Shown here piece after piece: positions 18,709-51,860 of a stretch of DNA of 64,000 nt. A model generated the notes under the pieces. That model was not told the DNA's origin. It worked only from the letters and a program-made list of their open reading frames with translations, and made no database searches. The translations under genes were made by a program, and so were the position numbers. Each line of letters starts with the position of its first letter. Within the stretch, counting starts at the first letter, position 1. This DNA comes from a virus, in the IMG/VR virus record IMGVR_UViG_3300018915_000002, one strand, 5' to 3'.

Positions 18709-20197
18709 CAAGAGGTCGCCAGAAGATACAACATAACCGCGTGTATCCCCACCCTCAGCGATAGCAGGGTGGGGCGGTAAGCGGGAAAAAGAGAGGGCTA
18801 AATGCCTTCTCTTTTTCCATATCAATTGGTATCATATTATATACAGTTTACTGCTAACCAATGCCCACCAGACGAGTTACCTTTCGCCTCTATCCCACTT
18901 CAGTGCAGGAACAAAAACTGCGCTGGGCACGGGCTATGCACAAGGATTTGTACAACTCGGCACTATCTAATCGTAAAACTCAGTACCAGAAGTTTGGAAA
19001 CAAAGTTGACTATTACCAACAGCAGGGTAGTCTGCCAGCCTTCAAGGAGGTGTGGACAGAATACAAGTTGCTCAATGCTGGTAGTTTGCAAGCCACTCTC
19101 AAACGGGTAGATTTTGCATATCAACGGTTCTTCCAGGGTTTAGGAAAATATCCTAGATTCAAGTCAATTCGTCATTATTCTGGGTGGACATATCCAGATA
19201 GCCGTCAAGGTTTCAAAGCCCACACCATAGGTTTTAACGGGTATCTGGAACTGACCGACTTGGGTATTCAAGTTCAATTAAGGGGGAAGGCAAGAATCTG
19301 GGGCAGACCAACAACCTGTACTATTGTTTACCGCAACAATAAGTGGTACGCATCAATAACAGTCGATATCAAGAATATCCAACGAGAACTGGGAACAGGT
19401 GCCATTGGAATTGATATCGGCTGTAAGTCGGCATTAGCTATCACTGATGGAGAAAATCATCAGTTAATAGAAGCGCCCAAGTTTCTCCGTAGTGCAGAAG
19501 CTCAGATTAAAAGAGCATCTAAATGCAAGAGGAGAAGGAGAGCGCCAAACCGTAAATCAAAAGTCAAAGCTTCTAGAAGATGGAAGAAAGCCTCTAACCG
19601 AGTAGGCAAGCTTACTCGCAAAGTAGCTAACCAGCGCCAGAACTGGGTTCATCAAGTGGCATCAGAAATCTCTTGCTGTAATAGCCTCGTTGCCACCGAA
19701 AAACTAGAAGTCAAGAACATGACCCGTAAAGCTAAAAAAGGTAAGCGGAAGAAACAGAAGGCGGGACTGAATAAATCTATCCTGGATGTTGGCTTTGGAA
19801 TGCTCAAGTCAGCAATTAGATACAAGATAGAAGAAGGTGGGGGACAGTTCATTGAAGTCCCCACCAAGAAAGTGAAGCCTTCTCAAACCTGCCCTAAATG
19901 CGGGAATCAGTATCCTAAGACACTAGATGAACGCACTCATCAATGCAGTGCGTGTGGCTACGAACAGGATCGGGATATCGCTTCTGCTGAAGTATGCCTT
20001 TACTGGGTCAAAGGTACTCTGCCGGGATTGGGAACCAGTCTCGTAGACGCAGATGGGTCTAGCTCTACTTTGTCACCCAAGACTCGCAAGAGTTGCGGAG
20101 GGATGAAGCAACTAGCCCAGAAGAAGCGTCAAAAATCTCAACCTGCTGTCGGGGATGCAGAAACCCCGACCTCCGCGTAGCAGGTCGGGCTAGTTCA
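18709..20197 (+). mobile_element. IS200/IS605-family (IS1341-type, tnpB only) element
   Basis: Left hairpin CCCCACCCT...AGGGTGGGG (18747-18774); right hairpin CCCGACCT...AGGTCGGG then TAGTTCA. Left boundary approximate. Confidence 0.8.
18861..20180 (+). CDS. tnpB: TnpB RNA-guided endonuclease
   Basis: FRLYPT, GIDIG, TEKL, CPKC/CSAC, DRD RuvC residues intact. Confidence 0.93.
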   Translation: MPTRRVTFRLYPTSVQEQKLRWARAMHKDLYNSALSNRKTQYQKFGNKVDYYQQQGSLPAFKEVWTEYKLLNAGSLQATLKRVDFAYQRFFQGLGKYPRFKSIRHYSGWTYPDSRQGFKAHTIGFNGYLELTDLGIQVQLRGKARIWGRPTTCTIVYRNNKWYASITVDIKNIQRELGTGAIGIDIGCKSALAITDGENHQLIEAPKFLRSAEAQIKRASKCKRRRRAPNRKSKVKASRRWKKASNRVGKLTRKVANQRQNWVHQVASEISCCNSLVATEKLEVKNMTRKAKKGKRKKQKAGLNKSILDVGFGMLKSAIRYKIEEGGGQFIEVPTKKVKPSQTCPKCGNQYPKTLDERTHQCSACGYEQDRDIASAEVCLYWVKGTLPGLGTSLVDADGSSSTLSPKTRKSCGGMKQLAQKKRQKSQPAVGDAETPTSA

Positions 20198-22080: not shown

Positions 22081-22108
22081 TTGCAATTTCCTAAAAACCT
22101 CCTACAAT
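22081..22108 (+). promoter_or_regulatory. Promoter of the Y RNA / Ro60 unit
   Basis: TTGCAA-16 nt-TACAAT; predicted start near A22116, matching the Y RNA 5' end. Confidence 0.7.
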
Positions 22109-22115
22109 GTACTAC

Positions 22116-22177
22116 AGGGCTGAAGAGATGAGGTTACCGTATATTCTTACAACACCCTCTTCTCAATACCTTGCCCT
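22116..22177 (+). ncRNA. Minimal Y RNA (YrlB-like)
   Basis: 5' AGGGCTGAAG pairs with 3' CTTGCCCT (bulged Ro-binding helix); inner AGA.GAGG/CCTC.TCT helix; upstream of Ro60. Confidence 0.75.
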
Positions 22178-22183
22178 ACCCAC

Positions 22184-22309
22184 GCCAACGTAGCTCAGTG
22201 GTAGAGCAGCTAAAACGTCTCGATTCAATCCCTTGCTCTTTAGAGCTGAAGAATTTGAGGTTATCGCCTTGAAAGCAGCAGGTCTTAGGTTCAAATCCTA
22301 GCGTTGGCA
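22184..22309 (+). ncRNA. tRNA-Y RNA chimera: complete cloverleaf (anticodon loop CTTGAAA) with a 54-nt Ro-binding module in the anticodon stem
   Basis: GCCAACG/CGTTGGC-A acceptor, GCTC/GAGC D arm, TTAGG-TTCAAAT-CCTAG T arm; insert 22212-22265 contains CTTGCTC-TTTA-GAGCTGAAG. Confidence 0.8.
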
Positions 22310-22313
22310 TTTG

Positions 22314-22342
22314 AAAGGTCAGTTCTTCAGAGCTGACCTTTT
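22314..22342 (+). terminator. Terminator/attenuator between the RNAs and the Ro60 gene
   Basis: AAAGGTCAGTTCT-TC-AGAGCTGACCTTTT. Confidence 0.7.
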
Positions 22343-22364
22343 GTTGTTTGTAGGAGGCAAAACT

Positions 22365-23975
22365 ATGAATTATTCATTCTTTTTCGAGAAAAAAGTTCCC
22401 CAAACCCAACCGATTCCTGGACGAGAGTCAGAAATGATCCAAGGGCGAAGTGGCGGCTATATGTTTGCTGCCGATGTTTGGACGCGCCTACGCCGCTGTC
22501 TAATAATCGGGACAGCAGAAAGCACGTACTACGCAGATAAGAAGGAACTAACTGGTGAGTTTGCTGATGTTGTCAAGGAGGCGATCGCACTTGACCCAGA
22601 GCGAGTAGCAACTGAAATTTGGTATGCCTCAGATGGACACGCCATTAATAACAGTGCGCCTATTTTCGCACTGGTATTGCTGTCGGCAGCAGAAAGCAAA
22701 GAAGCGAAAAAGCACTTTAAAAAGTTGTTCCCCCAAGTCATCAGAACAGGGAGCCACCTATACGAGTGGCTGGGGTACACCCGGAAGATTCGGGGGATGG
22801 GGCGAATCATTCGAGAAGTAGCGAAGGAATGGTTGAGCCAAGATGTGAAGTCTCTGGCATACCAGTTACTGAAGTACCAGCAACGCTATGGGTTTAGCTC
22901 TCGTGATGTACTCAGGATATTTAAGCCAGTAGCCCCCAGTGTCCAGCACCAAGATCTGTTCTACTGGGTCACCAAGGGGTGGACAGATGCCGATCTAGGA
23001 ACCGTTGATGTTCATCCTCCAGAGTTAAAGCAGATCTGGTGGTTTGAATACCTCAAGCGTAATCCTGATAAGGGTGCGATCGCAGTGAGGGAAGGTCGCC
23101 TCACGCACGAGATGACCACTGGGGTTGCCAATATGAACAAGGAGGTTTGGCGAGAACTGTTCCTTGGAATGCCTATTGGGGCATTACTGAGAAACCTAGG
23201 TTCCTTAACGGAAATTGGGGTATTGCGTCCTGATGCGATCGCAGATCTGAACTTGGTTGACGAAAAACTAACCAACAAAGACTTGCTGCGTAAGGCGCGG
23301 ATTCATCCAATAGATATTCTCAAAGCTCTAAAAACGTATAAGAGTGGGGGAAGCCTTGGGAAATCAAGCAAGACGTGGAGTCCAGTTGGACGCATCAACG
23401 ACATACTCAACGAGGCGTTGAATTTGAGCTTTCAAACCCAGGAGCCAACTCAGAAATTGTTCCTTCACGCGATTGATGTATCTGGTTCAATGAGTGGGGC
23501 TGCTGCCAAGGGAGCAGCCGATCTTACCTGCTGTGAAATCGCCACTGTCATGGCATTAGTAACAGCGAAAGCTGAGAAGAACTACATCATAAAAGGATTC
23601 TCAAATCAATTTATTGATTTGGGAATTGACGCGAGTGATACCTTCTTTAGTGCGATGAGAAAAGCAAAGAATCACAACTATGGCAGTACTGATGCCTCCC
23701 TTGCTTATGAGTGGGCGCTAAAAGAGAAGATTGTAGTTGATATGTTCTGTTGTTGGACTGACAACGAGTCCTTCGCAGGAAGAAGGCACCCATCACAAGC
23801 TCTTGCTGAGTACAGAAAGAAGGTCAACCCAACTGCGAAGGCGGTGTATGTGAGTATGGCTCCATACGGCATAACCCAGGTCGATCCCAAAGACCCGTTG
23901 AGTTACGACATCGCTGGTTTTGACCCCAGCACCCCGAAGTACATCCAGATGTTGGCTTCTGGAGAGCTTAATTAA
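22365..23975 (+). CDS. rsr: Ro60-related TROVE + vWA RNA-binding protein
   Basis: SGGYMF, LRRCLIIGT, KYQQRYG, MPIGALLRNLG, ARIHP, DVSGSM (MIDAS), TDAS, TDNE, AGFD. AGGAGG ribosome-binding site before ATG 22365. Confidence 0.93.
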   Translation: MNYSFFFEKKVPQTQPIPGRESEMIQGRSGGYMFAADVWTRLRRCLIIGTAESTYYADKKELTGEFADVVKEAIALDPERVATEIWYASDGHAINNSAPIFALVLLSAAESKEAKKHFKKLFPQVIRTGSHLYEWLGYTRKIRGMGRIIREVAKEWLSQDVKSLAYQLLKYQQRYGFSSRDVLRIFKPVAPSVQHQDLFYWVTKGWTDADLGTVDVHPPELKQIWWFEYLKRNPDKGAIAVREGRLTHEMTTGVANMNKEVWRELFLGMPIGALLRNLGSLTEIGVLRPDAIADLNLVDEKLTNKDLLRKARIHPIDILKALKTYKSGGSLGKSSKTWSPVGRINDILNEALNLSFQTQEPTQKLFLHAIDVSGSMSGAAAKGAADLTCCEIATVMALVTAKAEKNYIIKGFSNQFIDLGIDASDTFFSAMRKAKNHNYGSTDASLAYEWALKEKIVVDMFCCWTDNESFAGRRHPSQALAEYRKKVNPTAKAVYVSMAPYGITQVDPKDPLSYDIAGFDPSTPKYIQMLASGELN

Positions 23976-39044: not shown

Positions 39045-40721
39045 ATGATTGAGAAGTATCAATCAGCCCAGATAATTCCAAGCATCATCCAAACTTCTAA
39101 CGGCGACTATGCCCTACTGCTCTGGGACAAGGCAGTGGATCAAGACATTGTCACGGCTATCGAGCAGGGTCACACACTCGGCAACTACTGTTTGATTGGG
39201 GTTAGCGAAACGCCTTATGGCCCACTTTCTTGGATGTTATCTGCCATCGGTACAGTGGAGGAGTTCGCTGACCCTAATTCCACCCTGTTCTGGTTTGACT
39301 ATATTGTTAATCCAGGAAAAATCACCAGCTACGAGAAGCGCTGGTTCAAGATATTGAGCAAGCAATCTTCCCTGAGTCTTGGCATCCCATTAGGGACAAA
39401 AATTCGCCCCAACGGACTGATCTCTGACCGCACACTGGCGACATACCTTGAAGGCATCAACCACGCGATCGCTCATTGGCATATTGGCTGCGACTATGCC
39501 GCCGCTGTGGAGTGGCTCTGGAAGAATGAACTGGATGAACTCGTCAATGAAGCGATGCGAGAAATTCCCCAGAAGTACGGAAACCGCAATGGACAGGAAG
39601 TATTGGTTGATTGCTTAGGGCAAGCCGCCACTACTGTTTTAGATTCGGCTCATCCCCTGTGCCAGATTTATGAGCAGGGGCAGTTAGGGACGTATCTCCA
39701 AGCGTGGAAAAAGACAATTTCATTGAGTGATCTTAAAGAGCGATCGCAAGACCCAGCAGAAAACCTCAAACGAGACTGGCTTTTTGCCTCCACCTGCTTG
39801 ACCAAAAGTGAAAATCCCCTCAAGATTGCCGTGGGGTCTATCAATGGAACATGGATCTGGGCAGACTTTCCTTACAAGAGTAGTCGCCCAGAGTCCCTCT
39901 ATCTCCTGAGTAAGACTTACCGCTATTTGTTGGGGCATAACTTCAAGCCTTTGCTACATCGCAATGATGCTCTACTAAATCATCTTGAGCTTCCTGCCGT
40001 CGCCTCTTTAGGCAAAATACCCCAGCGCTCTTCCTTTGATCAAGTTGGCCGCATTCTCCAGGGAGCCATTCTTGACCGTGAGTTCGCCCTCCTTCAGCCA
40101 ACAGCAATCCTCGTAGGCAAACGGGGACTAGAAGAGGTTGAATATCACCCATTGACTAGGGGTGGTGTTTCCTGCCTCTTCAAGGTCAGGTTGATGGCAG
40201 ACTCTAATCGTGGGACGAATCTAGTCCTCGTTGGAAAACTGAACGCGGCTTCAGGAGTAATAGAAGCAATTGGGATAAAGGAAACTCCTGAGGTTAAGTT
40301 GATTTTGTTCCTCGTTGCGATAGCCTACCGAGATATCTTGGTTGCTCGGAATGCCGCAACTGTCCCAAGTAAGGGACGTGAAGGGAAGGGTAAATCCCCT
40401 CGTCGTTCACTAAGTCCCCCTGTGAAACTTGTGGCTCGTGTCAAGCAGTCCAGGACACAGATCCAGGAAACTTTTGCTGACCCACAGCAGTTGGTGCAGT
40501 CCTTACGAAAGTACAGCAGCTATCTACGGTCATGCCACCTGCGCCGTCTTCACGAAGGCTGGAATGCTTCTGAAAAGGCACTAAAGGTTGCTGAGCAATA
40601 TCAGTGGCTTGTTCCAGAAGGATTCACATTCGTGAAGCCAGCCATAGTTGAGGGGGATAGCGAGTTTAAGCTCAGGGAAGAATTCAAGTCCATATCCTTG
40701 ATGGATTTGCTATTTGGTTGA
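39045..40721 (+). CDS. Large hypothetical phage protein
   Basis: AAGGAG ribosome-binding site; C-terminal HLRRL..GW.AS...A...VPEGFTFVKP. Confidence 0.75.
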   Translation: MIEKYQSAQIIPSIIQTSNGDYALLLWDKAVDQDIVTAIEQGHTLGNYCLIGVSETPYGPLSWMLSAIGTVEEFADPNSTLFWFDYIVNPGKITSYEKRWFKILSKQSSLSLGIPLGTKIRPNGLISDRTLATYLEGINHAIAHWHIGCDYAAAVEWLWKNELDELVNEAMREIPQKYGNRNGQEVLVDCLGQAATTVLDSAHPLCQIYEQGQLGTYLQAWKKTISLSDLKERSQDPAENLKRDWLFASTCLTKSENPLKIAVGSINGTWIWADFPYKSSRPESLYLLSKTYRYLLGHNFKPLLHRNDALLNHLELPAVASLGKIPQRSSFDQVGRILQGAILDREFALLQPTAILVGKRGLEEVEYHPLTRGGVSCLFKVRLMADSNRGTNLVLVGKLNAASGVIEAIGIKETPEVKLILFLVAIAYRDILVARNAATVPSKGREGKGKSPRRSLSPPVKLVARVKQSRTQIQETFADPQQLVQSLRKYSSYLRSCHLRRLHEGWNASEKALKVAEQYQWLVPEGFTFVKPAIVEGDSEFKLREEFKSISLMDLLFG

Positions 40722-40809
40722 ATGTTCCGCAGTGGATTTAAACTTAGATCCACTGCGTTTCTTCTGTCCACTTCGCTTTAAACTTAAAGAGCCTTGGCTC
40801 GAACCGAAA

Positions 40810-41883
40810 ATGATGGACTTCATGCCCCACGGGGCTTGCTATCTCTGGGACGGAAAAATCATACTACTACACGTAGTTAGTGATGCTGGCATTGCTTTAG
40901 CGTATTTGTGCCTTCCGTTACTGCTTTGGCACTTTTCCCGGAAACGCAAAGACATCCCGTTTTCCTGGCTCTTCGCCATGTTTGGTGCATTTATTCTGAG
41001 TTGCGGCTCAACGCATCTTATGGGTATTTGGACATTGTGGCATCCCAGTTATTTGGCGGATGGATTACTCAAATTGGCGACAGCGGTAATCAGCCTAATG
41101 ACTGCGATCGCCCTTTTCACCCATCTGCCTGAGGTAATTGCCCTACCCTCTCCCTCTCAGATGTCCGAAAAGGAGCAACAACTGGAGGCGGCTTTGAAGA
41201 AGGAGCGGGAAATTAATGAATTTCGTCGGCGTATTGTCTCTACAGTGGCGCATGAGTATCGAACCCCACTAACGTCTATCCTCTCCTCTGCTGAACTGGT
41301 AGAGCGCTATCCAACTGGCAAGCGCTCAGTCCAGCACTTTGAAAATATTAGGAGAAAAATCACCTACCTTTCCAAGCTAATTGATGATGCCCTGATTCTA
41401 GATAAAGCTGAATCCGGGAGGTTGGAATTTCAACCTACTGAAATCGACGCAATTTCATGGTGTAGCGAGGTTCTTGCGGAATTAGATTGGGGAAAGCACA
41501 CGTTGCAGCTCAGTGCATTAGATGAGGCAGTAGGCTTATTCGATTTACGACTACTCAATGCCCTAGTTACCAATCTGGTGTACAACGCTTGTAAGTATTC
41601 CGATCCGGAATCTATTGTTTATGTTCGGCTACAAAGGGGTAACGAATCATTTATTTTGGAAGTTGAAGATCAGGGGATTGGCATTCCACTTGAGGATATT
41701 CCCCGCATTTTTGAATCTTACTTTCGAGCAGCCAATGTTGATTCTGCCCCTGGCACTGGTGTTGGACTTTCTATTGTGCAAGGATGTGTTAATCTCCACG
41801 ACGGCACTATCTCTGTTGTGAGCGAAGTGGGAGTTGGTACAACCTTTCGGGTTGTTTTGCCCCTGCGCCACGGAACTCCGTGA
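40810..41883 (+). CDS. Sensor histidine kinase with ethylene-receptor-type (ETR1-like) transmembrane domain
   Basis: FMPHGACYLW, SDAGIALAY, FILSCGSTHLM; HisKA HEYRTPL; HATPase NACKYS, DQGIGIP, GTGVGL, GTTF. Confidence 0.88.
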   Translation: MMDFMPHGACYLWDGKIILLHVVSDAGIALAYLCLPLLLWHFSRKRKDIPFSWLFAMFGAFILSCGSTHLMGIWTLWHPSYLADGLLKLATAVISLMTAIALFTHLPEVIALPSPSQMSEKEQQLEAALKKEREINEFRRRIVSTVAHEYRTPLTSILSSAELVERYPTGKRSVQHFENIRRKITYLSKLIDDALILDKAESGRLEFQPTEIDAISWCSEVLAELDWGKHTLQLSALDEAVGLFDLRLLNALVTNLVYNACKYSDPESIVYVRLQRGNESFILEVEDQGIGIPLEDIPRIFESYFRAANVDSAPGTGVGLSIVQGCVNLHDGTISVVSEVGVGTTFRVVLPLRHGTP

Positions 41884-50503: not shown

Positions 50504-51860
50504 CTGCTCTCTAAAACTTGATCAAAGGTAACCATAGCTGGTCAGAGCTTATCCGTCTAGTTCCTGTTTCACCCTAGGAAGTCGGCTCCTTCTAGTCCAC
50601 AGGCGTAAATTCCGCTCAAGCCAAGCGTACTCGGTCGTCAGGGGCATTTTCAAGATTAATCGACGCATTTTCGTCGCGGTCTTGGGAGTACCCACATTTT
50701 TGGCAATTAAAAACCCTGTCCTTCAGCTTCATATCTTGGACATGACCACACTTAGAGCAGGTCTTGGAACTGGGATACCAACGGTCTACCAGTTCTACCT
50801 TTGTCCCGTAGTGAGGTTGCTTGTAAATAAGCTGACGACGGATTTCGTAAAAGCACTTGTCACTCACAGCATTAGCCAACTTGTGGTTGGCAATCATACC
50901 TGAGACATTGAGGTCTTCTATGCGGATGTTGTAAACACGACGACTTAGGTCTGTCGTCATCTTCTGAGTCGTGTCTTGGCGAATATTAGCAATTCGCGCA
51001 TGACGACGAGAGAGCTTAACGTAGTACCGTCTAGCCTGACCGGAGGCTTGTATCTTCAGCTTTTTATTTCCCAGAACCTTGTTACGATTACGCCATTGCA
51101 GTTTGCCGAGCTTGGTTTTCGCCCTTATTGTGGCAGCAGGCATCTCGTACTTAGTTCCATCGGAAACTGTAGCTAGACATTTGACTCCCAGATCCACTCC
51201 GACTCGTTGCAGTGGATGGATAACTGGGGGTATTTTTTCAGCATCTAGGGTGAAAGAAACGTACCATCTATCCGCCGTTCTCGAAACCGTGAAGGTCTGA
51301 GAACTACAGGTAAAGTCTATCTTCTCTTTCAAACGAAAGGTCGCCAACCCTGGAAGCTTAATTCGCTTTCCAGGATTGACGACCACTCTGTTTGTAAAGG
51401 GTAGTGCAGGCTTCCCTTTTTCGGGATATACTCCAGCCGTCTTATAGACAGTGAAGGAGTCTCCTCTCTTTTTGGACTTCTTCTTAGGAAAGCCAGATAA
51501 GCCCTTGCGCCAACGAGCAAAAGCTTCTTTGATGTCGATGAATGCAGATTGGTAGACCGTGGAGGGATACTTCTTCATCCACGCGAATTCTGGTTTCTGC
51601 ATTGTGACATTGGTAAAAACCTTTTTAATTGCAGCAATCCGCTTGGAATCACTCGCTTTTACATCTTCAAAGTCCCAACTGACGACGATTAAGTCGAGGC
51701 AGTAGTTATAAACAAAGCGCTTAAATCCAGCACAGCCACGCATGAGAGAACGTTCTCTGTTATTCAGTTTTAGTTCTCTTTTGAGGGCGTACATGATTAG
51801 ACTTTTATCTTCGTGTGTTGATTATAACAAAGACCTTGAGTGGCACTCAAGGTCTTTGTG
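50504..51860 (-). mobile_element. IS607-type tnpB-only element
   Basis: After tnpB: TTTACGCCTGTGGAC...GGTGAAACAGGAA...GTTTTAGAGAGCAG, typical of IS607-type right ends. No serine transposase. Left end approximate. Confidence 0.7.
50616..51794 (-). CDS. tnpB: TnpB RNA-guided endonuclease
   Basis: GVDLG, IEDLNVSGM, PSSKTCSKCG, DRDENAS.NL. Confidence 0.93.
   Translation of the reverse strand: MYALKRELKLNNRERSLMRGCAGFKRFVYNYCLDLIVVSWDFEDVKASDSKRIAAIKKVFTNVTMQKPEFAWMKKYPSTVYQSAFIDIKEAFARWRKGLSGFPKKKSKKRGDSFTVYKTAGVYPEKGKPALPFTNRVVVNPGKRIKLPGLATFRLKEKIDFTCSSQTFTVSRTADRWYVSFTLDAEKIPPVIHPLQRVGVDLGVKCLATVSDGTKYEMPAATIRAKTKLGKLQWRNRNKVLGNKKLKIQASGQARRYYVKLSRRHARIANIRQDTTQKMTTDLSRRVYNIRIEDLNVSGMIANHKLANAVSDKCFYEIRRQLIYKQPHYGTKVELVDRWYPSSKTCSKCGHVQDMKLKDRVFNCQKCGYSQDRDENASINLENAPDDRVRLA

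What the first reader, a model, noticed from the sequence alone, without database searches (positions are those of the whole stretch)
22184..22309. tRNA with a circularly permuted Y-RNA Ro-binding module grafted into its anticodon stem, upstream of a phage Ro60
Seen: deleting 22212-22265 (54 nt) leaves a perfect 72-nt cloverleaf: GCCAACG TA GCTC AGTGGTA GAGC A GCT^GC CTTGAAA GCAGC AGGTC TTAGG TTCAAAT CCTAG CGTTGGC A. The insert holds both strands of the adjacent Y RNA in reversed order: the 3' strand (AAAAC..CTC..CAATCCCTTGCTC), a TTTA loop, then the 5' strand (GAGCTGAAG..GAGGTTATC). Known: YrlA RNAs have the Ro helix at the free ends and a tRNA-like domain with a closed acceptor and no anticodon loop. 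Here the topology is inverted, leaving free acceptor ends and an anticodon loop. The UGA anticodon with a short variable loop and A73 lacks Ser identity elements. Inference: a Ro60-tethered tRNA decoy or sensor against anticodon-nuclease defences, or a tRNA whose maturation is gated by Ro60.
Basis: partly seen in the sequence, partly recalled or inferred. Interest (0 to 1): 0.9.

Follow-up and report, generated by a model that had tools for sequence, protein, structure and literature searches.

The report
tRNA-shaped Y RNA beside Ro60
A small RNA gene in front of a phage-borne Ro60 gene is built like a complete tRNA, with the docking helix for the Ro60 ring protein branching out of its anticodon stem. 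This layout is the reverse of the bacterial Y RNAs described so far, and it also sits beside Ro60 in many cyanobacteria.

Summary
Window 22184-22309 matches Rfam tRNA (49.4 bits), interrupted by 54 nt (22212-22265) in the 5' strand of the anticodon stem. The insert is a capped copy, in reversed strand order, of the hairpin at 22116-22177, and Ro60 follows at 22365-23975.

It is not a one-off graft. A covariance model finds 327 such units in 86 Ro60 loci of cyanobacteria and viral contigs. All seven helices covary, including the open acceptor stem and the split anticodon stem.

The branch carries the bacterial Ro60-binding motif GNCGAAG; the window has the rare variant GCUGAAG. The anticodon-like loop keeps 7 nt, U33 and a purine at 37, while its triplet is the most variable part of the RNA.

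In 151 sampled genomes, units occur in 12 of 13 with this Ro60 type and in 0 of 138 others. Rfam's YrlA model matches only below threshold and straddles two adjacent units.

Best reading: a Ro60 partner RNA processed like a tRNA and used unspliced as a tRNA mimic. A spliced decoder is unlikely. The decoy or sensor idea is untested.

I found no description of this layout in the papers searched. This scan had already noted the layout on another cyanobacterial genome (e1-3076673).

The parts
22081..22108 (+). Promoter-like site: TTGCAA, 16-nt spacer, TACAAT. It would place the transcript start near 22116.
   Evidence: The region holds 3 such sites against 2.9 expected by chance, so this is weak on its own. 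A similar TTGACA/TAGTAT pair precedes the homologous hairpin in L081.
22116..22177 (+). Simple Y-RNA-like hairpin ('Y1'). The ends pair (AGGGC/GCCCU). The motif GCUGAAG lies on the 5' strand and CCUUGC on the 3' strand. The distal helix is GAGAUGAGG/CCUCUUCUC.
   Evidence: Fold (-18.5 kcal/mol). L081:1985-2045 has a homologous hairpin at the same place, with compensating changes in the distal helix (read by eye).
22184..22309 (+). tRNA-shaped Y RNA, 126 nt. Parts: acceptor 22184-22190 with 22302-22308; D arm 22193-22207; variable loop 22280-22284; T arm 22285-22301; discriminator A at 22309.
   Evidence: Rfam tRNA 49.4 bits; model R1 111 bits; family covariation. Present in the window and near-invariant across the 150 aligned units: U8, A14, G18, G19, U54-U55-C56 and A58.
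22209..22211 (+). The first three nucleotides (GCU) of the split anticodon stem. They pair with AGC at 22277-22279.
   Evidence: One search lists the pairs. In the family the stem is split 2+3 in 119 units, and 3+2 in 15 units (G31-C141) plus 2 units including the window (U31-A141).
22212..22265 (+). Ro60-binding branch. Parts: A-rich linker; distal helix 3' strand 22217-22226; UU 22233-22234; cap stem GCUC-UUUA-GAGC 22235-22246; bulged U 22247; GA 22248-22249; distal helix 5' strand 22251-22261; linker UAUC 22262-22265.
   Evidence: Helices 4 and 5 covary and are predicted independently by RNAalifold. The bulge column is C in 148 of 150 units and U in 2. CUU, GA and UUAUC are invariant or nearly so. 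The motif GNCGAAN0-1G is from Chen 2014.
22266..22276 (+). Anticodon-like hairpin: GC, loop CUUGAAA, GC. The loop triplet is UGA.
   Evidence: 129 of 150 units have a 7-nt loop. Position 33 is U in 140 of 150 and position 37 is a purine in 143 of 150. There are 25 different triplets. Helix 6 covaries.
22312..22353 (+). Intrinsic terminator: a 14-pair stem followed by a U-rich tract, lying between the RNA genes and Ro60.
   Evidence: fold.
22365..23975 (+). Ro60 (Rsr) gene, 536 aa, with ribosome-binding site AGGAGG at 22352-22357.
   Evidence: PF05731 TROVE and PF25045 Ro60 vWA; phrog_850. It is 60-65% identical to cyanobacterial chromosomal Ro60 and about 67% identical to the one on IMG/VR contig L081.

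Best explanation
The element is a partner RNA (Y RNA) of the adjacent Ro60 protein, built on an unpermuted tRNA frame.

Inferred steps. One transcript starts at about 22116 and ends at the terminator at 22312-22343. It carries a simple Y hairpin and then the tRNA-shaped unit. RNase P cuts at 22183/22184, which frees the hairpin and creates the unit's 5' end; 3' trimming and CCA addition may follow. Read-through of the terminator supplies Ro60 mRNA in smaller amounts.

Shown by comparison. The unit folds as a full L-shaped tRNA. Its 5-bp anticodon stem is interrupted by a three-way junction, and a bulged helix with the Ro60-binding motif, closed by a small loop, projects from that junction.

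Inferred function. Ro60 docks on the branch. The tRNA body, with free acceptor end and anticodon-like loop, stays exposed and engages a protein that recognises tRNA. The RNA therefore acts as tether and gate for Ro60, as Y RNAs do elsewhere. It works unspliced and is not a decoder.
For: Synteny. Units lie directly upstream of Ro60 in the window, in 80 cyanobacterial genome loci and in viral contig L081. In five complete genomes, insert-bearing hits occur only at the six Ro60 loci, while ordinary 70-73-nt tRNAs score 57 bits or less. In 151 sampled genomes, units occur in 12 of 13 with this Ro60 type and in 0 of 138 others (Fisher p 7e-17).

Structure. 97.3% of cells are paired, 31 of 35 pairs show compensating changes, 0 of 500 shuffles reach these values, and slid controls fall to 38-52% paired. 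RNAalifold on an unfitted MAFFT alignment recovers the acceptor, D, T and both branch helices.

Ro site. The family consensus GCCGAAG fits GNCGAAN0-1G, which Chen 2014 link to Rsr binding and to the GGUCCGA contacted by Xenopus Ro60. CUU, the bulged C and GA are invariant or nearly so.

Not a decoder. Genome G003 has ordinary tRNA-Gly(UCC), Gly(GCC), Lys, Asn and Ile as well as its units. Units with Tyr-, Leu- or Ser-type triplets have 5-nt variable loops.

Precedents. M. smegmatis YrlA is cut by RNase P and receives CCA. Thermus phage Ro60 binds two upstream hairpin RNAs carrying CGAA.
Against: There are no expression, processing or binding data for any member.

The window's own sequence does not prefer the proposed fold: -24.5 kcal/mol against a minimum free energy of -37.3, with a z-score of only -1.83.

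Both window modules have U where 148 of 150 relatives have the bulged C, so binding strength is uncertain.

RNAalifold did not predict the short split anticodon helices. Support for them rests on counts from a model-fitted alignment, although the spacing there is fixed by invariant flanks.

The effector that would read the tRNA body is unknown. The promoter call is at chance level.
Confidence: 0.7

Rival explanations
1. Decoy or sensor in conflicts over tRNA. The exposed anticodon-like loop would be bait for anticodon nucleases or tRNA-modifying effectors, and Ro60 would sequester, report or help dispose of the cut RNA. This refines the function of the best explanation rather than replacing its anatomy.
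For: The three 'anticodon' columns are the most variable of the aligned columns in the Ro60-proximal unit (1.83-2.02 bits, 14 triplets in 56 loci). 35% of unit pairs that are at least 95% identical elsewhere differ in the triplet, while U33, purine 37 and loop length are kept. Arrays carry several different loops. The closest viral relative, L081, has an RNA ligase gene (PF09414) just upstream. In Salmonella, rsr and the Y RNAs share an operon with the RtcB ligase, and that operon is induced by damaged tRNA (PMC7790460, listed).
Against: High variability at three positions is also what simple lack of constraint gives. No nuclease, ligase or kinase was found beside Ro60 in the window or in cyanobacterial locus L025. 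The family is mainly chromosomal rather than phage-borne.
Confidence: 0.15
2. A leader or processing element of the Ro60 mRNA. Ro60 would bind its own leader to tune termination or translation, and the tRNA shape would serve only as an RNase P/Z cutting signal.
For: The last unit ends about 38 nt before the Ro60 start codon in chromosomal loci, with no U-tract terminator between them. In the window a terminator lies between the RNA and the ORF and no separate promoter is called, so Ro60 expression depends on read-through.
Against: Arrays of up to about eight units reach more than 1 kb upstream (L008). Some units lie 1.4-5.5 kb from Ro60 and some lie downstream of it. A cutting signal would not need a conserved anticodon-like loop or the complete set of tRNA elbow nucleotides.
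Confidence: 0.1
3. A real tRNA gene with an intron. The 54-nt branch would be excised and the halves joined to give a working 72-nt tRNA(UGA).
For: Removing 22212-22265 gives a perfect cloverleaf that ARAGORN calls tRNA-Ser(tga). Relatives show authentic-looking loops such as CUCAUAA and CUGCCAA.
Against: No bacterial enzyme is known to excise a helix from an anticodon stem (Wang 2018 note that splicing endonucleases are unreported in bacteria). 54 nt is too short for a group I intron. I see no bulge-helix-bulge at the junctions (direct reading). The branch and its linkers are the most conserved part of the RNA. The position of the break shifts by one nucleotide between units. Canonical tRNAs with the same anticodons exist in G003. 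Ser-, Leu- and Tyr-type triplets come with short variable loops.
Confidence: 0.04
4. An ordinary YrlA, circularly permuted relative to tRNA: the Ro helix formed by the RNA ends, the T arm before the D arm, and a closed acceptor stem-loop.
For: Rfam YrlA gives weak hits (23-41 bits) in the cyanobacterial and L081 arrays. The Ro-helix strands of neighbouring units pair as well between units as within them (13.44 against 13.46 of 14).
Against: There is no YrlA hit in the window even at E up to 10. The window has a single unit, so no second half exists to pair with. All array hits are far below the gathering score of 69 and straddle two units. Acceptor strands pair within units (6.98 of 7) better than between units (5.9 of 7), with compensating changes at all seven pairs.
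Confidence: 0.02

Closest known systems
YrlA (Rfam RF02553; Chen et al. 2014, PMC4201824; Wang et al. 2018, bioRxiv 10.1101/312249)
   Same: It is encoded next to Ro60/Rsr. It is modular, with a Ro60-binding helix carrying GNCGAAN0-1G plus a domain that keeps the tRNA D and T loops and the tertiary-pair nucleotides.
   Different: In YrlA the Ro helix is formed by the RNA's own ends, the T arm precedes the D arm, the acceptor stem is a closed loop and there is no anticodon loop. Here the order is that of a tRNA, the acceptor ends are free, the Ro helix is an internal capped branch, and an anticodon-like stem-loop is kept. The Rfam model does not reach threshold and straddles two units.
[quoted passage not shown] 2014)
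   Same: The result is a Ro60-bound RNA with an open 7-bp acceptor stem and a tRNA-like 3' end.
   Different: There the open ends arise by cutting a closed loop, which leaves two pieces held by the Ro helix. Here a single chain has that topology from the start and also has an anticodon-like loop.
Deinococcus radiodurans Yrn1 and metazoan Y RNAs
   Same: Both strands of the bulged Ro-binding helix are recognisable: GGC-C-GA facing UUGCC in the family, compared with GGUCCGA in vertebrates. Yrn1 can also be drawn with an 'anticodon arm'.
   Different: In those RNAs the Ro helix sits at the RNA termini, in the acceptor position for Yrn1. Their tRNA likeness is partial, and Yrn1's loop has 6 nt.
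Thermus phage phiLo Yrl1/Yrl2 with phage Ro60 (PMC12135203)
   Same: A phage Ro60 gene is preceded by short hairpin RNAs with a CGAA-type motif that bind the protein in vitro. The window's hairpin at 22116-22177 is of this simple kind.
   Different: No tRNA-shaped member is described there. The window's motif is UGAA rather than CGAA.
Circularly permuted and intron-containing tRNA genes of algae and archaea
   Same: The tRNA parts are interrupted or reordered at the gene level.
   Different: Those are processed by a splicing endonuclease and a ligase into normal tRNAs. Here nothing points to excision.
Earlier finding of this scan, e1-3076673 (another cyanobacterial genome)
   Same: The same family: unpermuted tRNA-shaped RNAs in front of rsr, conserved across cyanobacteria.
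   Different: That note describes the anticodon arm as replaced. Here the arm is shown to be retained as a split 5-bp stem with a 7-nt loop. In addition a phage-borne operon, the straddling YrlA hits and the co-occurrence numbers are new.

Membership tests
Y RNA (Ro60 partner RNA, broad sense) | Encoded beside a Ro60/TROVE gene, on the same strand | tested here: met
   The unit ends 56 nt before the Ro60 start codon. The same holds in 86 loci, and units co-occur with Ro60 in 12 of 13 genomes against 0 of 138.
Y RNA (Ro60 partner RNA, broad sense) | A helix carrying the Ro60-binding motif (GNCGAAN0-1G in bacteria; bulged helix) | tested here: inconclusive
   The family consensus GCCGAAG fits the motif exactly. 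Both window copies read GCUGAAG, with U at the bulge position, a variant seen in 2 of 150 units.
Y RNA (Ro60 partner RNA, broad sense) | The Ro-binding stem is formed by the 5' and 3' ends of the RNA | tested here: not met
   In the unit the stem is internal and capped by UUUA. The feature is met by the separate hairpin at 22116-22177.
Y RNA (Ro60 partner RNA, broad sense) | Physically bound by Ro60 | not testable with these tools
   This needs co-immunoprecipitation or a gel-shift assay.
YrlA (RF02553) | Matches the Rfam model at its gathering score (69 bits) | tested here: not met
   There is no hit in the window at gathering score or at E up to 10. Relatives give 23-41 bits, each hit spanning two units.
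YrlA (RF02553) | T arm 5' of D arm, closed acceptor stem-loop, no anticodon loop | tested here: not met
   The order is acceptor, D, branch, anticodon hairpin, T, acceptor. The acceptor is formed by the unit's own ends, with 7 of 7 pairs covarying.
YrlA (RF02553) | A tRNA-like elbow (conserved D-loop and T-loop nucleotides) | tested here: met
   U8, A14, A21, U54 and the G53-C61 pair are invariant. G18, G19, U55, C56 and A58 are near-invariant, in 100-148 of 150 units.
tRNA (RF00005) | Cloverleaf with the conserved nucleotides, above the Rfam gathering score | tested here: met
   49.4 bits against 29.
tRNA (RF00005) | An uninterrupted anticodon stem-loop in the mature gene product | tested here: not met
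   There is a 54-nt conserved branch within the stem. Default ARAGORN finds no tRNA.
tRNA (RF00005) | Identity elements that agree with the anticodon, and a needed role in decoding | tested here: not met
   The UGA triplet comes with a 5-nt variable loop and A73, whereas bacterial tRNA-Ser has a long variable arm (established knowledge). G003 holds canonical tRNAs with the units' triplets.
Intron-containing tRNA (group I or bulge-helix-bulge type) | An intron in or next to the anticodon loop, with a group I core or a bulge-helix-bulge motif | tested here: not met
   The insert lies between stem positions 29 and 30 (28 and 29 in most relatives). It is 54 nt long, it gives no Rfam intron hit, and no bulge-helix-bulge is visible by inspection.

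The most novel reading that the evidence does not exclude
Cyanobacteria and their phages use Ro60 together with complete, end-processed tRNA look-alikes whose 'anticodons' change quickly. These RNAs would be active players in conflicts over tRNA, as bait or sensors for anticodon nucleases or as guides for tRNA repair. Alternatively they would be CCA-tailed or even charged molecules that bring Ro60 to the translation machinery. In this view the known permuted YrlA arose from tandem copies of such units.
Probability: 0.2. Interest if true: 0.85.

Novelty: new variant of a known kind. Interest (0 to 1): 0.7.

Why it matters
The partner of the tRNA-like half of bacterial Y RNAs has been unknown since 2014. 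A version with free acceptor ends and an anticodon-like loop gives concrete handles for finding it: RNase P, CCA-adding enzyme, synthetases, modification enzymes and anticodon nucleases can each be tested directly.

The result also suggests that the cyanobacterial 'YrlA with a much longer acceptor stem' in the literature is two adjacent tRNA-shaped units read as one. That is an inference, because the published supplement could not be read.

It further supplies living examples of the tandem tRNA arrangement from which YrlA was proposed to have evolved (Wang 2018).

Finally, a phage-like element carries its own copy of both protein and RNAs, with a private variant of the binding motif. This raises the testable idea that the element runs its own Ro60 particle alongside the host's.

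Tried and rejected
- **Single-protein locus scans:** these found nothing in viral or genome contigs. An alignment query worked.
- **Metagenome scan:** it gave only ordinary cyanobacterial loci and nothing closer than L081.
- **Sequenced phages:** blastn of the RNA region gave only short generic tRNA matches. tblastn of Ro60 gave only actinophage, Vibrio-phage and alpha-proteobacterial-phage Ro60 at 35% identity or less, with no isolated cyanophage.
- **Single-sequence folding:** it does not give the cloverleaf, so I relied on comparative evidence.
- **First MAFFT alignment:** it mis-set the 3' acceptor strand and was redone without the discriminator base.
- **PF05731 genome search at E 1e-10:** it missed genomes that do have this Ro60, including G001, and was replaced by a protein query.
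- **RNA ligase in the window:** tblastn with the L081 ligase found none in these 64 kb.
- **Literature:** four full-text searches found no description of this topology. The 2020 Annual Review (PMC10870794) and the supplements of Chen 2014 are not held.
- **Readings rejected:** pseudogene with an inserted repeat (ruled out by the covariation) and canonical YrlA (ruled out by the single unit and the acceptor covariation).

Full report
**What is in the window**

Positions 22184-22309 (+) match the Rfam tRNA model over its full length at 49.4 bits (E 1.5e-07), with a 65-nt gap in the anticodon region. Default ARAGORN reports no tRNA anywhere in the 64 kb. Read directly, the element has these parts:
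- a 7-bp acceptor stem (GCCAACG with CGUUGGC);
- U8 and a D arm with G18 G19;
- a 5-nt variable loop and a T arm with UUCAAAU;
- discriminator A.

The anticodon stem is GCU^GC paired with GCAGC, around the loop CUUGAAA. With these 54 nt removed in silico, ARAGORN calls a 72-nt tRNA-Ser(tga), and the minimum-energy fold is the cloverleaf.

**The insert is a Ro60-binding module in reversed strand order**

Upstream, 22116-22177 folds as a hairpin whose ends pair (AGGGC with GCCCU). It has GCUGAAG on the 5' strand, CCUUGC on the 3' strand, and a distal helix GAGAUGAGG with CCUCUUCUC. The insert carries the same module as 3' strand, UUUA cap, 5' strand. Its helices differ from the hairpin's by compensating changes.

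The ORF at 22365-23975 has the TROVE and Ro60 vWA domains. A promoter-like TTGCAA/TACAAT pair would start transcription at about 22116, and a strong terminator lies at 22312-22343. The promoter call alone is at chance level.

The surroundings hold terminase small and large subunits, ribonucleotide reductase, MazG, an endolysin-like gene and replication genes. The DNA also has 85 HIP1 palindromes against 0.65 expected. I therefore call it a phage or prophage-like element of a cyanobacterium.

**It is a family, not a single graft**

The Ro60 protein is 60-65% identical to chromosomal Ro60 of many cyanobacteria and about 67% identical to one on a 104-kb IMG/VR contig, L081. Upstream of nearly all of these genes lie one to about eight units with the same plan.

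A covariance model built from 16 units (R1) finds 327 matches in 86 loci, and only one in the window. On the 150 best:
- 97.3% of cells are standard pairs;
- 31 of 35 pairs show changes on both sides;
- no shuffle out of 500 reaches these values;
- sliding the partners drops pairing to 38-52%.

Every helix takes part: the acceptor, D, T, both helices of the branch, and the two short pieces of the split anticodon stem.

That alignment is fitted to the model, and the sequences are related, so the shuffle counts are not probabilities. Two points offset this. RNAalifold on the plain MAFFT alignment independently recovers the acceptor, D, T and both branch helices. The short anticodon helices sit at fixed spacing between invariant flanks.

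L081 has the same operon as the window: promoter-like site, simple hairpin, three units, terminator, Ro60.

**The branch looks like a Ro60 site**

In the family the 5' strand reads GGCCGAAG. This fits the bacterial motif GNCGAAN0-1G, which Chen et al. tie to Rsr binding and to the GGUCCGA contacted by Xenopus Ro60. Facing it, CUU is invariant or nearly so. This allows GGC-[C]-GA to pair with UUGCC as a bulged helix, a pairing I infer from the sequence. The bulged base is C in 148 of 150 units and U in two, one of them the window. The window's hairpin also has U there. The linker UUAUC after the branch is invariant.

**The anticodon arm is kept, not replaced**

Of the 150 units, 129 have a 7-nt loop. 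Position 33 is U in 140 and position 37 is a purine in 143. The three middle positions take 25 different triplets. Many loops look authentic, for example CUCAUAA, CUGCCAA and CUGAUAA.

The break in the stem sits after two nucleotides in 119 units. It sits after three in 15 units (G-C pair), and in the window plus one other (U-A pair). The total stays at five pairs.

In the unit nearest Ro60, across 56 loci, the triplet columns are the most variable aligned columns (1.83-2.02 bits). 35% of unit pairs that are at least 95% identical elsewhere differ in the triplet. This may reflect diversifying pressure or simply freedom from constraint. I cannot tell which.

**Association with Ro60**

In five complete genomes, hits that include the branch occur only at the six Ro60 loci, one of which belongs to a second Ro60 paralogue. 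Ordinary tRNAs score 57 bits or less. In a sample of 151 genomes of the phylum, 13 have this Ro60 type. Twelve of those have units close by, within 6 kb. None of the other 138 genomes has any (p 7e-17). Six genomes with a distant Ro60 (34-36% identity) had none at that threshold.

**Not a decoder, and probably not spliced**

Genome G003 has normal tRNA-Gly(UCC), Gly(GCC), Lys, Asn and Ile in addition to its units. Units with Ser-, Leu- or Tyr-type triplets have short variable loops, which bacterial class II tRNAs never have (established knowledge). The branch and its linkers are the best-conserved part of the RNA, which is the opposite of what an intron shows. No group I core or bulge-helix-bulge is present. 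[quoted passage not shown]

**Relation to published YrlA**

YrlA has the Ro helix at its ends, the T arm before the D arm, a closed acceptor loop and no anticodon loop. The literature says cyanobacterial YrlAs have 'much longer' acceptor stems.

The Rfam YrlA model gives no hit in the window. In the arrays it gives only 23-41 bits against a threshold of 69, and each hit runs from the 3' half of one unit into the 5' half of the next. Acceptor strands pair within units (6.98 of 7) better than across units (5.9 of 7).

I infer that the published long-stem forms are two tRNA-shaped units read together. I could not read the supplement to confirm this. The arrays also resemble the tandem-tRNA ancestor proposed for YrlA.

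**How it most likely works**

Shown: the fold, the motif and the linkage to Ro60. Inferred, in order:
- the transcript is cut by RNase P at 22183/22184, as M. smegmatis YrlA is;
- this frees the hairpin and the unit;
- Ro60 binds the branch;
- the exposed tRNA body recruits a tRNA-recognising protein, so that the RNA tethers or gates Ro60.

Terminator read-through would keep Ro60 mRNA below the level of the RNAs.

Confidence is 0.7 for the anatomy and the Ro60 partnership, and much less for any particular effector. The decoy or sensor idea stays open at about 0.15. The RNA ligase next to the L081 operon hints at tRNA repair, but the window has no such gene in these 64 kb.

**Novelty**

Four full-text searches found no description of this layout. 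This scan had already noted the layout on another cyanobacterial genome (e1-3076673), and I reached the same reading before seeing that note.

New here are the retained split anticodon arm, the phage-type operon with a simple hairpin, the straddling YrlA hits and the co-occurrence figures. I class it as a new variant of a known kind.

Noticed in passing
L004:2176-2313, L025:2175-2312, L001:2042-2179 (about 138 nt): A second layout in the same arrays. It has a full 5-bp anticodon stem, then a small extra hairpin, then the Ro module. Rfam tRNA scores it 51-54 bits with a 70-nt gap where the anticodon loop would be.
   Followed up: partly
L008:1325-1448, L077:250-375, L020:1808-1935: A third layout. 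The Ro module is cut at a different point: cap stem and motif first, then the distal helix closed by its own loop. The tRNA body therefore joins at the module's internal loop.
   Followed up: no
L001:4181-4288, L003:4181-4288, L018:4162-4273 and about 40 other loci: Directly after the Ro60 stop codon lies a fourth kind of unit. It has an acceptor stem and T arm but no D arm, with the Ro module and a further hairpin between them. The window has no counterpart.
   Followed up: no
A4 (150 units) with their flanks: 128 of 150 units have G at position -1 and C at 73, which allows an eighth acceptor pair like that of bacterial tRNA-His. 27 of 150 encode CCA after the discriminator. The window unit has neither.
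   Followed up: partly
L081:745-1740: An RNA ligase gene (PF09414 with the PHA02142 OB fold) sits about 250 nt upstream of the Y RNA/Ro60 operon of the closest viral relative.
   Followed up: partly
window 40714-41883: A histidine kinase with an ethylene-receptor-like N-terminal domain (PF25487, 4e-36) lies inside this phage-like region.
   Followed up: no
window 18861-20180 and 50616-51794: Two IS605-family TnpB (OrfB) genes are present. The first lies between the ribonucleotide reductase and MazG genes.
   Followed up: no
whole window: There are 85 HIP1 palindromes (GCGATCGC) against 0.65 expected. They are spread evenly, including inside the terminase and Ro60 genes, so the element shares the host's sequence habits.
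   Followed up: yes
L186:3026-3148 with ORF L186:1243-2850 (genome G002): One Calothrix genome has a second Ro60 paralogue, 60% identical to the window's, with its own tRNA-shaped unit upstream.
   Followed up: partly
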